Shown here piece by piece: positions 1 through 61,224 of a stretch of 64,000 nt of DNA. This DNA is from Eledone cirrhosa (taxonomy: Eukaryota). The translations under genes and the position numbers were made by a program. The notes under the pieces were generated by a model. The model worked only from the letters and a program-made list of their open reading frames with translations. It had not been told where the DNA came from and did no database searches. Location: assembly GCA_964016885.1 (NCBI GenBank), contig OZ024747.1, positions 73,408,001 to 73,472,000 of the forward strand, in the 5' to 3' direction. The first letter of the stretch is position 1, and every line of letters begins with the position of its first letter.

Positions 1-885
1 CCATCAACGAACTCATTATTAATACATATTAACTCTTTATTCGCATATATTATCAATTCCTTCAATATACAAACTTTAACTCCACATTATTTTTCTCAAA
101 TCCTTCTACACACAAACCTTAATAATTTTTCTCTTCGTTAATTTTGAAATTGCCACAATATCTTATCAACATACATTTCTTTTTTTGACGTTAGAATATT
201 CATCCACAATTATTATTTTTTCTCTCTATCTTCATACATAAATTCCCTTCGTTAATTTTCAAATTCCTTTAATTTATACATTATCTTCCAACGGTTCCCA
301 ACCTCTCTATGTAAAACTATATATCTTTTTCTCAGTTATAAAAACTATCTCTTTCTCTCTATCACCCATCTCTCCCTCTCCACCTTCACTCTCATCTCCT
401 CCCCCTTTTTTCATCCTTTCCACCCCCCCCCTCCCTAAATAAAATATTTTTTCCTCGCACATATCCTCCCTTCGTTAATTTTCAAACATTTTTTTAAAAA
501 TTTTTTTTTTTTATTTTTAATTTATACATTATCTTCCAACGGTTTTCAACCTCTCTATGTAAAACAATATATCTCCTCTCAGTTATAAAAACTATCTCTT
601 TCTCTCTATCACCCATCTCTCCCTCTCATCTCCTTCCCTTTTTCATCCTTTCCACCCCCCCCCTCTCTAAATAAAATATTTTTCCCAATATCACACATCA
701 ATCTAAAACCACTTTTCATATGTTGATTTAAAACTGCACTATCCACAAGTGTTTTTTAGCCTTCATATCATGTTCTCCTGTTTTATCTGATGAAAACACA
801 AATATTATTGCATGATGATGTTTGTTTTTGAAATGCGCATAATAAAATACATGGAACTCCTTTAACCATCTTTTGATCTTATATT
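1..885 (+). mobile_element. 3' end (pLTR-like) of a probable Penelope-like element, cut by the window edge
   Basis: Contains a hammerhead at 779-849 and ends about 45 nt later in a (TA)n tract. Internal ~220-bp tandem duplication (245-455 vs 468-685). No coding sequence visible, so the PLE call is by analogy with 3302-9248. Confidence 0.5.
779..849 (+). ncRNA. Type I hammerhead ribozyme motif
   Basis: ttttat-CTGATGA-(stem II hairpin aaacacaaatattattg...atgatgtttgttttt)-GAAA-tgcgca-TA-ataaaa. Stem I is perfectly paired; stem III is the palindrome ATGCGCAT. Confidence 0.85.
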
Positions 886-1028
886 ATATATATATATATA
901 TATATATATATATATATATATATATATATATATATATATATATATATATATATATATATATATATATATATATATAAAATATTAAACAAATAATGAATAA
1001 ACAATTCCTTATATTAAACAAAAAAAGT

Positions 1029-1180
1029 TCATTATTTAACGATCGTTTCTAGGATATATATGTGTTATAATTGGTATGCATATTCAACAGATCTATGTAC
1101 AAAATTATACAAAATTATACAAATTATCAAGATTAAATATACATACCAACACATATATACGCCGTCTTCAGAAATAATGA
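1029..1180 (-). ncRNA. Type I hammerhead ribozyme motif with long stem II
   Basis: Minus strand: tcattattt-CTGAAGA-(~115 nt hairpin, tatatatgtgtt...aacacatatata)-GAAA-cgatcg-TT-aaataatga. 9-bp perfect stem I; palindrome ACGATCGT. Confidence 0.8.
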
Positions 1181-2866
1181 AGTATATTTATTGATAATAA
1201 CAACAATTCAAAATTTCAGGTCCGTTTGGGAACAAAATTGACCAATGAAAACACAAAGGGTTAAATGCAGTTCGGTGTGTGTATATACATGTAAAACCCT
1301 TACACATATTTTACAAAAATGTATGTATAATTTGTATACGCATACTAAAAGGATGGATGCAAATACAAAATTTCAAGGTTAATGTCTCTGTAAGTTTATA
1401 ATGCACCGATAAGATGCGTATTGACACAAGTATGAAATTAAGTATATAAATATATTTTTTCATACTCACACTTATCCGTACAATCACACATACACGCCCG
1501 TATATGCATAAATATACACATAACCACGAACATACAAACACACACACACCCCCACTCACATTTATATATGTGGATATAAAATCATAAGCACATGGATATT
1601 AATTCACTCCCATAAAACATTGGCACACACATTTTTAGATCAAGATACAGAAATTAGGTGGGAGGGGGGGAGGGGTCAGTATTCAACGGTCTGAGCAGAC
1701 TGCCTAATATAGATGTATCTATAAACTAAGAAAATAAAAAATAAATAAACATTAAAGAGGAAAGAATAGAAAGAAAAAAGAAAAAAGAAAAAAGAAAAAA
1801 GAAATATATCAAGAAAATATATATATATATATATATATACATATATATACACATACATATATATATATATATATACACACACACATATATATAATATACA
1901 TATATATACACATAGACACACACACACACATACATAAATATACACACATATACAAACACATACATACATATACACACATCCACACTAAGAACATACATAC
2001 ACACACATATATAAACATATACACATACACACATACATACATATACACATATACATACAAATACACATATATATATATATATATATACATATATATATAT
2101 ATATATATATATACATATATATGTATATACACGTACATATACACACACATATACATATAATCACACATACTATATAGACACACATATATATAACCACACA
2201 CATACATGCACATATACAACACTTACATACTAATATACATACAGATATACACATACATAGCTATATATACACACAAATATATACAGACTTACATATATAC
2301 ATACAGACAAATACTTACGCATCTATATATCGGTATATACATACAAACACCACTACACTATCACACAACTTAGAAATACAAAGAGAAAGGTATATACCTA
2401 TACACACATACATATACAAATAGAAAAACATATATATATATATATATATATATATATATATATACACACAGATATATATATATACATATATATATATAAC
2501 ATATATATATATATATATATACACATACATATACACATACACACACATACACATACACACACATACATACATGTACACACACATAGAAATATATACGCAT
2601 ACACACATACACACATACATATAAAGTCATACACACACAAACACCTACACGAACATACACATACACATACACATACATCTCTTCTTTCCATGATATCCGG
2701 AATACATTGAGTTCTTCATACGGATTGGACACTACCGTAAACTCTTGGTAGATTTATCTACATATATATATATATATATATATATAAAGTCATAAATATA
2801 TATGTGTTTTGCAACGGGTCACTTTGTGGCTCAATGAAGAATTAATAAATTAAATAATCAGGGCTA

Positions 2867-3260
2867 TATATCATAAAACATGTCTATAGAATCACCATAT
2901 AAAATATATACCGTTTCCTCTCCCAATTAGCATAATTAACCACATAAAAAATCAATTAGACCAAGTTATAAGAATAAAGGCTCCTATGAAGAAATCTCCG
3001 ACAAATAACCGAAAGCTACCCTTAGCGGCGGTTACGACGGATTATTTATCGAATATTTCGACAGCATGTATTAATCGACCAGATATACAGTCAATTAAAC
3101 AGAATTAGGTGTAAAATAAAGTAGAAGAAAAGTGTACATATTTAATTACCTCTACCATGGTTTAATCCGCATTTTTTTTTATATGGTTAATTATGCTAAT
3201 TGGGAGAGGAAACGGTATATATTTTATCTAGTGATTCTATAGACATGGTTTATGATATAT
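2867..3260. repeat. Fold-back element with ~85-bp inverted arms, right arm abutting (TA)n
   Basis: 2867-2950 is the reverse complement of ~3174-3260 (gtttcctctcccaattagcataattaacca / tggttaattatgctaattgggagaggaaac). Confidence 0.75.
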
Positions 3261-3344
3261 ATATATATATATATATATATATATATATATATATATATAT
3301 ATACGATACTAAATAAATGGAAACTATATTTATAAAATCATATT

Positions 3345-3410
3345 TATTTCATTATATATATTTCAGGGATATCATATTAAAAATATGGTATGCCTTCATC
3401 AGACAAAATA
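3345..3410 (-). ncRNA. Hammerhead ribozyme motif in inverted pLTR segment
   Basis: Reverse complement of 4928-4993. Confidence 0.8.
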
Positions 3411-60289: not shown

Positions 60290-60344
60290 ACTGCTATATA
60301 TATTTCGGTGACAGCCATCTTTGGTTGTGACCTCTTCAGGCAGT
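60290..60344 (-). ncRNA. Type I hammerhead ribozyme motif
   Basis: Minus strand actgc-CTGAAGA-ggtcacaacca-aaga-tggctgtcacc-GAAA-tatata-TA-gcagt. Confidence 0.85.
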
Positions 60345-60451
60345 CCGAATTAGTGTGGTAGAGACGAGTACACTTCGTCGAGTGCTCCAGAGTATTGACA
60401 AAGTTAAACACCTCAATAACATATGTACTCGTCTCTACCACACTAATTCGG

Positions 60452-60506
60452 ACTGCCTGAAGAGGTCTCAAACAAAGATGGCTGTCACCGAAATATATAT
60501 AGCAGT
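60452..60506 (+). ncRNA. Type I hammerhead ribozyme motif
   Basis: actgc-CTGAAGA-ggtctcaaacaaagatggctgtcacc-GAAA-tatata-TA-gcagt; perfect stem I. Confidence 0.82.
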
Positions 60507-60680
60507 AATAAACGAAGCCAAATTTTAAACATTTGACTTATTTATTTTATTTTATTTTACATTACTCCGGAGTAACCAAACCAACCTGCGCACTTCGTCG
60601 AGTACTCCAATCTGCATACTGAGGTGTTGGTATACAACCAACATATACTCAATATATATATATATATATATATATATATA

Positions 60681-61015
60681 GTATAAAAGAGAAAACACAG
60701 GTAAGCATTAAGAGAATGATTTTATCCAGGTATTTACGACCGTTTCATTGGTAAGTGCAACCTTATATTGCTATACTGCAAATAGCCGCCACTATATAAG
60801 GTTGCACTTACCAATGAAACGGTCGTAAATACCTGGATAAAATCCTTCTCTTAATGCTTACCTGTGTTTTCTCTTTTATACTTTATACTCCAAGATTGAA
60901 CGGAATTCTTACAAACTTGTGGAGTTACCCCTAACCGTACGTTGAAACCATCCATGAAATGGCTTTCTTAACCCCAAACTGGATCACAATAAGCAATATT
61001 TTACTTCTCTAATTA
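60681..61015 (+). mobile_element. Fold-back element retaining only the 3' half of a hammerhead
   Basis: 60681-60770 is the reverse complement of ~60790-60881. Contains GAAA-cggtcg-TA-aatacctgg but no upstream CUGANGA; TA runs at both ends. Confidence 0.65.
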
Positions 61016-61090
61016 TATATATATATATATATATATATATATAAATTAATAAAAATAATGAATAAAAACAAATCTTATATTAAAAAATTC

Positions 61091-61224
61091 ATCATTTTAC
61101 GATCGTTTCTAGGATATATATGTGTGTGTTGGTATGTATATCATATAGATCTATGTAAAAATTTTACAAACTATCAGAGGGAATATACATACCTACAAAT
61201 ATATATGCTGTCTTCAGAAATAAT
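61091..61224 (-). ncRNA. Type I hammerhead ribozyme motif, diverged relative of 1029-1180
   Basis: Minus strand attattt-CTGAAGA-cagcatatata...tatatatccta-GAAA-cgatcg-TA-aaatgat. Confidence 0.75.

What the first reader, a model, noticed from the sequence alone, without database searches (positions are those of the whole stretch)
779..61224. Seventeen hammerhead motifs in 64 kb, with family-specific palindromic stem III
Seen: otherwise dissimilar elements share the layout CUGANGA-stem II-GAAA-palindrome-H-stem I. The palindromes are ATGCGCAT, ACGATCGT, ATATATAT, ACAATTGT, ACACGTGT and ACTAATTAGT. Established: PLE pLTRs carry minimal type I hammerheads with palindromic stem III that can cleave as dimers. 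Inference: different palindromes could act as orthogonal dimerisation codes, so that only tandem copies of the same family cleave.
Basis: partly seen in the sequence, partly recalled or inferred. Interest (0 to 1): 0.75.

Follow-up and report, generated by a model that had tools for sequence, protein, structure and literature searches.

The report
Paired hammerhead ribozymes of Penelope elements
The 17 motifs are real hammerhead-ribozyme sequences from several very abundant jumping-gene families, and their self-complementary third stem likely makes two copies pair up to cut RNA, as already published, but the palindromes are shared between families and are therefore not by themselves a family code.

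Summary
Observation confirmed: a descriptor finds exactly 17 motifs (13 strict; shuffles 0.07). One has G at the cut site and is predicted dead. They belong to 8 families in 9 insertions. Six families sit next to Hydra-clade Penelope-like (PLE) coding sequence; one is a 554-bp retrozyme-like array. Seven family patterns give 82,355 genomic matches, and the window is 3-5 times the sampled density. A palindromic helix III with dimer cleavage is published, and family-varying palindromes of Hydra PLEs are tabulated in print. Added here: the central four bases, which cannot pair in a monomer, pair in 35 of 38 positions (39% expected). In one 41,104-copy clade the central pair runs U-A, U·G (18,002), C-G, and almost never C·A. 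'Family-specific' fails: ATATATAT serves three window families and ACAATTGT two unrelated ones, and sharing is not below a random null. A double hammerhead swaps helix I as well, so most families are predicted incompatible, but as a by-product of divergence. No RNA or cleavage data. The scan reached the same verdict on another piece of this genome (e1-8664523).

The parts
782..846 (+). Hammerhead, family F2, palindrome ATGCGCAT (833-840), predicted cut after A841. It is the 3' pLTR motif of a 5'-truncated Hydra-type PLE that starts before the window; arm 353-892 has an inverted copy upstream
   Evidence: RT (55% to the window RT) and EN lie in the adjacent stretch L213, with an inverted hammerhead at L213:7456; 16,406 pattern matches in the genome
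1033..1176 (-). Hammerhead, family F5 (first subfamily), palindrome ACGATCGT, 115-nt helix II; lone stub
   Evidence: family lies downstream of a Hydra-type EN in L019 and L230; 9,030 matches
3348..3407 (-). Hammerhead, family F1 (clade A), palindrome ATATATAT, in the inverted arm (about 3296-3536) of the PLE at 3625-9248
3625..5128 (+). Upstream pseudo-LTR of the F1 element (1.5-kb direct repeat of 7796-9248, 94.8% identical)
4931..4990 (+). Hammerhead F1, ATATATAT (4977-4984), predicted cut after A4985, about 190 nt before the start codon; cis partner of the motif at 9051
   Evidence: clade A has 41,104 matches
5172..7398 (+). Hydra-clade PLE reading frame (RT and C-terminal GIY-YIG endonuclease), split over three frames by two frameshifts near 5360 and 6740
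   Evidence: motifs RWR, DKT, CxC linker, CxxC and CxH by inspection; no Pfam or PDB hit
7796..9248 (+). Downstream pseudo-LTR of the F1 element, ending in (TA)n
9051..9110 (+). Hammerhead F1, ATATATAT, 4,120 nt after its same-strand twin
15946..15985 (+). Hammerhead, family F12, palindrome ACAATTGT, very short helix II (U·U, then 2 bp); lone stub
   Evidence: 4,634 matches; about 230 nt downstream of a Hydra-type EN in L223 and L227
24513..24632 (-). Hammerhead, family F7, palindrome ACACGTGT, 91-nt helix II, in inverted arm 24473-24907
24893..25624 (+). 3' part of a Hydra-type GIY-YIG frame (CxCX5C linker, CxxC, CxH) of the 5'-truncated F7 element
26625..26744 (+). Hammerhead F7, ACACGTGT, in arm 26350-26784
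   Evidence: 3,551 matches
50560..53330 (+). Five head-to-tail 554-bp units (family F3, retrozyme-like, no ORF of 120 aa), each with a hammerhead (C3 at 51001, 51555, 52109, 52663, 53217), palindrome ACTAATTAGT
   Evidence: 4,743 matches; no parent ORF found
54628..54686 (+). Degenerate hammerhead, sister of F9, palindrome ATATATAT, G at position 17; predicted inactive
60290..60344 (-). Hammerhead, family F9, ATATATAT with helix I ACTGC/GCAGT, left arm of the fold-back 60275-60521
60452..60506 (+). Hammerhead F9, ATATATAT, right arm of the same fold-back
   Evidence: 2,887 matches; Hydra-type EN and RT (49% to the F1 RT) in L206, L208, L209
61093..61222 (-). Hammerhead F5 (second subfamily, 78% identical to the copy at 1033-1176), ACGATCGT, 101-nt helix II; lone stub

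Best explanation
The motifs are type I hammerhead sequences in the end repeats of several abundant Penelope-like retrotransposon families and in one non-coding tandem repeat, and they likely cut RNA mainly as pairs, two copies swapping strands through the self-complementary third helix. Shown: the motifs, their place in pseudo-LTRs beside Hydra-type RT/GIY-YIG sequence (six families), their copy numbers, and self-complementarity that reaches the central bases and is kept through G·U intermediates. Inferred: in a transcript holding two same-strand copies (pLTR-ORF-pLTR, or the 554-bp array) copy A pairs with copy B through both helix III and helix I, and cutting at both sites would release a unit-length RNA (4,120 or 554 nt). 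Lone and inverted copies, the large majority, would be mostly silent relics. The palindrome sequence likely drifts along any path that keeps pairing. Families end up mostly unable to cross-pair because helix I and helix III have both diverged, not because a code was selected.
For: 17 motifs against 0.07 by chance. Descriptor with no palindrome requirement: 76 hits against about 1.5 in shuffles, 50 of 76 perfect palindromes, several of the rest self-complementary with G·U or around a central base. Central four bases, unpairable in a monomer hairpin: 32 of 38 pairs Watson-Crick and 35 of 38 with G·U, in 19 even-length families of 23; expected 26% and 39% (some families are related). Clade A: 41,104 copies, 18,002 with ATATGTAT, 553 with ATACRTAT, of which 86 of the first 100 are ATACGTAT (two or more own subfamilies) and 14 are scattered ATACATAT. 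ATATGTAT needs 6 changes on a tree of 52 copies, at least 4 forced by well-supported branches. F9, with the same palindrome, shows no such skew (1 ATATGTAT, 2 ATACATAT in 100), against a mutational bias. Nearest-neighbour energies favour the active dimer over two active monomers by 9-20 kcal/mol in 26 of 26 families. No repulsion: palindrome-compatible pairs 17 of 325 against null 6.6, and 6 of 231 against 4.8 after collapsing kin. RTs 49% identical share ATATATAT while one 55-58% identical differs. Literature: PMC4209133, PMC6765202, PMC7229834, PMC8557442.
Against: No cleavage or expression data here. An 8-nt palindrome can also fold as 2 bp plus tetraloop; invertebrate retrozyme hammerheads cleave efficiently as single motifs and an axolotl motif with that helix III gives 22% cleavage alone (PMC7229834, passages). 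A lizard PLE hammerhead cut only with the element's protein, was not needed for insertion in vitro, and left no RNA ends at the site (PMC11167929, passages). The net dimer was not favoured over the two ground-state folds in 4 of 26 families. Some families are not palindromic at the centre (AGGACT/AGAACT). The energies omit tertiary contacts and the cost of joining sites 4 kb apart. The tree rests on 141 columns and recombination between subfamilies is not excluded. Sister families with the same helix I but different palindromes exist (clade A and F2; ACAATTGT and ACGGCCGT), which a code would also predict.
Confidence: 0.72

Rival explanations
1. Selected orthogonal code: each family's palindrome has been driven apart from the others so that only same-family tandem copies cleave.
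For: Palindromes are stable within families (84-96 of 100). 308 of 325 family pairs are more than 2 kcal/mol worse in helix III alone. Sister families with like helix I and unlike palindromes occur here and in Hydra magnipapillata, where six listed families have near-identical helices I and II and five different helix III sequences (PMC8557442 file S2).
Against: The same palindrome in distinct families. The most abundant clade uses two cross-compatible forms. Sharing is at or above the random null. Helix I separates families that share a palindrome (F1/F9, F10/F12, F4/F14). Two of the Hydra magnipapillata families share one helix III.
Confidence: 0.08
2. The motifs cleave as monomers or with help from the element's own protein; the palindrome is only a short hairpin, and family specificity, if any, comes from the protein.
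For: Helix III of 1-3 bp plus a 4-nt loop is possible in every motif; efficient single-motif cleavage in invertebrate retrozymes (PMC7229834, passages); protein-assisted cleavage and a predicted protein dimer for a lizard PLE (PMC11167929, passages).
Against: It does not explain why the loop bases are self-complementary in 35 of 38 positions, or the U-A / U·G / C-G series with C·A nearly absent. Protein help is compatible with dimers.
Confidence: 0.15
3. The palindromes are DNA sites (transcription-factor or endonuclease dimer sites) that happen to lie in a hammerhead-like context.
For: Some are familiar palindromic words (CACGTG inside ACACGTGT; recalled, no call). The elements insert as DNA fold-backs.
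Against: The palindrome always begins at the last A of GAAA and ends at U16.1, between paired helices I and II that co-vary. 16 different perfect palindromes of 6 nt or more in 26 clusters. G·U-type changes are tolerated on the RNA strand and the mirror-image C·A change is not, which double-stranded DNA would not tell apart.
Confidence: 0.03
4. The excess of ATATGTAT is an A-to-G editing or mutation hot spot, not selection on pairing.
Against: F9 has the same palindrome and no skew (A-to-G 4, T-to-C 3 in 100 rows). ATATGTAT marks whole subfamilies, and ATACGTAT completes the pair.
Confidence: 0.05

Closest known systems
Minimal and palindromic-helix-III type I hammerheads in pLTRs of metazoan PLEs (Cervera and de la Pena 2014, PMC4209133: parts 1-2 of 4 read, supplement file 2 searched, file 1 not searchable; Lunse et al. 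2016 not held, known only through passages of the review PMC6765202)
   Same: Type I layout, place in the pLTR on the sense strand, palindromic helix III, frequent unpaired base before helix II, many sequence families per genome, most copies single or in inverted pairs, dimer model.
   Different: Palindromes here are longer (6-10 nt, none of the no-helix-III minimal type was found), helix II reaches 115 nt, and the estimated number (1.7-2.2 x 10^5) is far above the 2,000-9,000 per genome given there.
Hydra clade of C-terminal EN+ PLEs (Craig et al. 2021, PMC8557442: passages, section 11, supplement searches)
   Same: DKT, RW(K/R), CxCX5C linker, CxxC and CxH around E and N, insertion in (TA)n, inverted 5'-truncated copy. 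File S2 already lists long, family-varying self-complementary helix III sequences for Hydra elements.
   Different: That paper describes few, short (<3 kb) families; here the unit is about 4.1 kb and there are many families with thousands to tens of thousands of copies. No tree with the published RTs was built.
Animal non-LTR retrozymes (PMC7229834, passages; bioRxiv 10.64898/2026.07.22.740005, parts 1-2 of 5)
   Same: Head-to-tail non-coding units with one type I hammerhead each, low GC, proposed non-autonomous partners of PLEs. The axolotl holds 126,247 motifs, a similar order.
   Different: The unit of 554 bp is above the 150-450 bp of the first paper and within the 51-972 bp of the second. 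Circular RNA is not shown, and no parent PLE was found for F3.
Double-hammerhead structure of newt satellite and avocado sunblotch viroid RNA (Forster et al. 1988; not read, recalled and cited in PMC4209133)
   Same: Two motifs form one long shared helix III.
   Different: There a single sequence family; here dozens of families coexist, which is what raises the cross-pairing question.

Membership tests
Type I hammerhead ribozyme | Core CUGANGA, GAAA and UH in type I order | tested here: met
   16 of 17; the motif at 54633 has G17
Type I hammerhead ribozyme | Helices I and II closing the core | tested here: met
   Helix I 5 of 5 pairs in 16 of 17; helix II folds in all, weak in F12; compensatory changes in helix II of F3
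Type I hammerhead ribozyme | Match to an Rfam hammerhead model | tested here: not met
   None at gathering score, none in 150 of 251 weak rows shown. The long helix II and missing hairpin III probably fall outside the models (inference)
Type I hammerhead ribozyme | Site-specific self-cleavage | not testable with these tools
   Needs in vitro assay
Type I hammerhead ribozyme | Loop 1 / loop 2 tertiary contacts of canonical motifs | not tested
   Not examined
Dimer-type PLE hammerhead | Helix III self-complementary, including bases that cannot pair in a monomer | tested here: met
Dimer-type PLE hammerhead | Cleavage depends on a second copy | not testable with these tools
   Only energy estimates
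EN+ Penelope-like element | One frame with RT and C-terminal GIY-YIG between direct pseudo-LTRs, with inverted truncated copy | tested here: met
   3296-9248; domains named by motif inspection, Pfam gave no hit
Hydra clade | DKT motif, RWK-like motif, CxCX5C linker, CxxC and CxH, (TA)n targets | tested here: met
   DKT and RWR in the F1 frame; CxCX5C whole in the F7 fragment and in the F1 relative in L210, last C replaced in the window copy; the F1 RT reads like the published Hydra alignment by eye
Hydra clade | Position in the RT phylogeny | not tested
   Published sequences could be read but not passed to alignment tools
Non-LTR retrozyme (F3 array) | Two or more tandem non-coding units, each with a complete type I hammerhead | tested here: met
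   5 units of 554 bp; many short arrays elsewhere
Non-LTR retrozyme (F3 array) | Expression as unit-length linear and circular RNA | not testable with these tools
   No RNA data could be laid on it
Orthogonal palindrome code (proposed) | One palindrome per family, not shared | tested here: not met
Orthogonal palindrome code (proposed) | Less cross-compatibility than random palindromes | tested here: not met
   17 of 325 against 6.6; 6 of 231 against 4.8
Orthogonal palindrome code (proposed) | Heterodimers inactive | tested here: inconclusive
   Predicted for most pairs when helix I is counted (8 of 325 compatible; 1 of 42 ordered window pairs within 3 kcal/mol); not measured

The most novel reading that the evidence does not exclude
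Helix I and helix III together form a two-part self-recognition key. In a genome with about 200,000 hammerheads in more than 20 families, only same-lineage copies on one transcript cut, so host pre-mRNAs that run through many lone stubs stay whole. The genome is then a natural library of mutually exclusive, dimer-gated ribozymes and records in vivo selection on the dimer helix.
Probability: 0.3. Interest if true: 0.55.

Novelty: new member of a known kind. Interest (0 to 1): 0.3.

Why it matters
The kind is known, so the finding itself is ordinary for this genome. Two things add some value. First, whether PLE hammerheads act as dimers in the cell is still open, and this genome gives large-number evolutionary support: the pair at the very centre of helix III, which only two copies can form, moves U-A to U·G to C-G and avoids C·A. 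Second, the natural variants give a ready panel for homo- and heterodimer assays, and would supply orthogonal two-input ribozymes if the predicted incompatibility holds. The claim of a selected family code would be new, but the tests here go against it.

Tried and rejected
Rfam scans gave no hammerhead. Pfam and PDB sequence searches did not name the RT or EN. Repeat finder output was swamped by microsatellites, so self-blast was used. No RNA holder listed for the 554-bp unit; 5 runs of unknown kind, none laid. The first tree split arms of the same insertion because its flanks ran past the element ends; it was dropped and rebuilt on the shared region. In one search one clade-A cluster was mis-registered as a 13-mer and fell out of the even-length count with three other odd-length families. 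A PLE frame beside an F3 array (L212) starts mid-RT and has no F3 motif after it, so it was not taken as the parent. GAA-ACTGCAGT at 63458 has no core upstream and was rejected. No variant-core motifs were found. Lunse et al. 2016 and Arkhipova et al. 2017 could not be read; they may already hold covariation data or a remark on family specificity. Searches for an orthogonal-code proposal in print listed no paper on it by title or abstract start. Window as a special hot spot: rejected, it is 3-5 times the sampled mean and its two 10-kb neighbours hold 1 and 0 motifs.
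Full report
Observation. A structural descriptor finds 13 motifs at strict and 17 at loose settings, against 0 and 0.07 in 200 block-wise dinucleotide shuffles. All six palindromes are there. The 17 fall into 8 families in 9 insertions. One motif (54633) has G at the cut site and is predicted dead. Rfam does not detect them.

What carries them. 3625-9248 is a Penelope-like element: 1.5-kb direct repeats, each with a hammerhead, around an RT and GIY-YIG frame with two frameshifts, preceded by an inverted truncated arm with a third hammerhead. 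Its motifs (RWR, DKT, CxC linker, CxxC, CxH, (TA)n ends) match the Hydra clade as defined in PMC8557442 section 11; domain names rest on inspection, as Pfam gave no hit. The motif at 787 ends a second Hydra-type element whose RT and EN lie just before the window. F7 flanks an EN fragment in the window. F5, F9 and F12 lie downstream of Hydra-type EN in other loci. The five motifs at 51001-53217 are a 554-bp non-coding array of retrozyme type with no parent found. Only 7 of the 17 have a same-family, same-strand neighbour within 6 kb. Among the first 100 listed genomic copies, 6 do for F2 and 6 for F7, counted by eye.

Abundance. Exact family patterns, with the inside of the palindrome left free, give 16,406 (F2), 41,104 (clade A), 4,743 (F3), 2,887 (F9), 4,634 (F12), 9,030 (F5) and 3,551 (F7) matches, 82,355 in all, with 0 in each reversed control; three of these patterns cover only the 3' half of the motif. 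In 98 blind 10-kb stretches (100 asked for) there are 72 palindromic motifs in 979.6 kb, 17 of them in one array. That extrapolates to roughly 1.7-2.2 x 10^5. The window, at 250 per Mb, is 3-5 times richer but not different in kind.

Is the palindrome real and does it point to dimers? With no palindrome requirement, 76 motifs were found against about 1.5 in shuffles; 50 are perfect palindromes, 16 have one non-Watson-Crick pair (often G·U), 3 have two, and 7 are 9-mers. The central four bases must be loop in a monomer. In 19 even-length families of 23 they pair in 32 of 38 positions, 35 with G·U, against 26% and 39% expected (some families are kin, and one clade-A cluster was mis-registered and left out). 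Clade A shows the path: 18,002 of 41,104 copies read ATATGTAT (U·G), and 553 read ATACRTAT, 86 of the first 100 being ATACGTAT in subfamilies of their own and 14 scattered ATACATAT. ATATGTAT needs 6 changes on a tree of 52 copies, at least 4 forced (short alignment, recombination possible). F9 has the same palindrome and no skew. Double-stranded DNA cannot tell U·G from C·A, RNA can. Energies favour the active dimer over two active monomers by 9-20 kcal/mol in all 26 families, and over the two ground-state folds in 22.

Is it a family code? Each family keeps its palindrome (84-96 of 100 listed copies in six families). But ATATATAT occurs in 6 clusters of two lineages, ACAATTGT in 3, ACTAGT and ACATATGT in 2 each. 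RTs 49% identical share ATATATAT, while a closer one (55-58%) has ATGCGCAT. The largest clade runs on two forms that pair equally well with each other. Helix III alone leaves 17 of 325 family pairs compatible; random palindromes give 6.6, and after collapsing kin 6 of 231 against 4.8, so there is no sign of repulsion. In a double hammerhead the strand after the cut site pairs with the other copy, so helix I is exchanged too (follows from the topology). Counting both helices, 8 of 325 pairs remain compatible, all in clade A or with its sister F2; of 42 ordered pairs among seven window families one is within 3 kcal/mol. Against my reading: sister families with like helix I and different palindromes exist here and in Hydra magnipapillata.

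Mechanism. Most likely a transcript with two same-strand copies folds a double hammerhead and is cut at both sites, giving a 4,120-nt or 554-nt unit that could circularise; this is inferred from the anatomy and from PMC4209133 and PMC7229834. Caveats from print: 2-bp helix III motifs can cleave alone (PMC7229834), and a lizard PLE hammerhead needed the element's protein and was dispensable for insertion in vitro (PMC11167929). No RNA evidence was obtained here.

What is known. PMC4209133 (parts 1-2 of 4; supplement search) describes pLTR hammerheads, palindromic helix III, many families per genome and low dimer activity. PMC6765202 (passages) summarises the dimer work of Lunse et al., which I could not read. 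PMC8557442 file S2 tabulates different long helix III sequences for Hydra-clade families. bioRxiv 10.64898/2026.07.22.740005 (parts 1-2 of 5) ties retrozymes to PLEs; its supplements were not seen. Six searches listed no paper on an orthogonal code. An earlier report of this scan on another piece of the genome reached the same verdict, seen after my own tests and alongside.

Verdict. Real, known kind, new members; the code reading is not supported as stated. The wobble series is a useful new piece of support for dimers in vivo. Interest 0.3.

Noticed in passing
window 22254-23101: tRNA-like sequences at 22353-22417 (-) and 22865-22929 (+) inside nested inverted repeats; looks like a tRNA-derived SINE fold-back
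   Followed up: no
window 28397-32164: LINE with AP endonuclease and RT, broken by single stops; an ORF1-like frame before it
   Followed up: no
window 35730-38931 (+) and 41769-43313 (-): Two non-LTR elements with RT, zinc knuckle and a C-terminal restriction-like endonuclease motif by eye
   Followed up: no
window 32500-33511 and 39345-40082: RT fragments of RTE-like appearance
   Followed up: no
window 43932-45110: 27-bp minisatellite, 44 copies
   Followed up: no
window 40209-40818: Perfect 215-bp inverted arms around a (TA)n/(TG)n core, with no hammerhead found
   Followed up: no
window 10648-10785, 12901-13001, 18593-18692, 46443-46502, 58327-58467: Short dispersed repeat of about 140 bp, five copies
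   Followed up: no
L025:1837, L098:2614, L102:7465 and others: A hammerhead family whose helix III centre is not palindromic (AGGACT or AGAACT); it would form tandem G·A or A·A pairs in a dimer, or act as a monomer
   Followed up: partly
L016:7740, L048:8187, L049, L118:142: A family with a 9-nt helix III, ACCA-C-TGGT, which can fold as a stable monomer hairpin; similar to the odd-length ones in PMC8557442 file S2
   Followed up: partly
L130:5754 onward: Array of at least 17 hammerhead units of 310 bp with palindrome ACGCGT; probably the retrozyme family of earlier notes
   Followed up: no
L212:2815-4137 and L183:2174-3025: Frames of a second, non-Hydra PLE type beside F3 arrays; relation unclear
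   Followed up: partly
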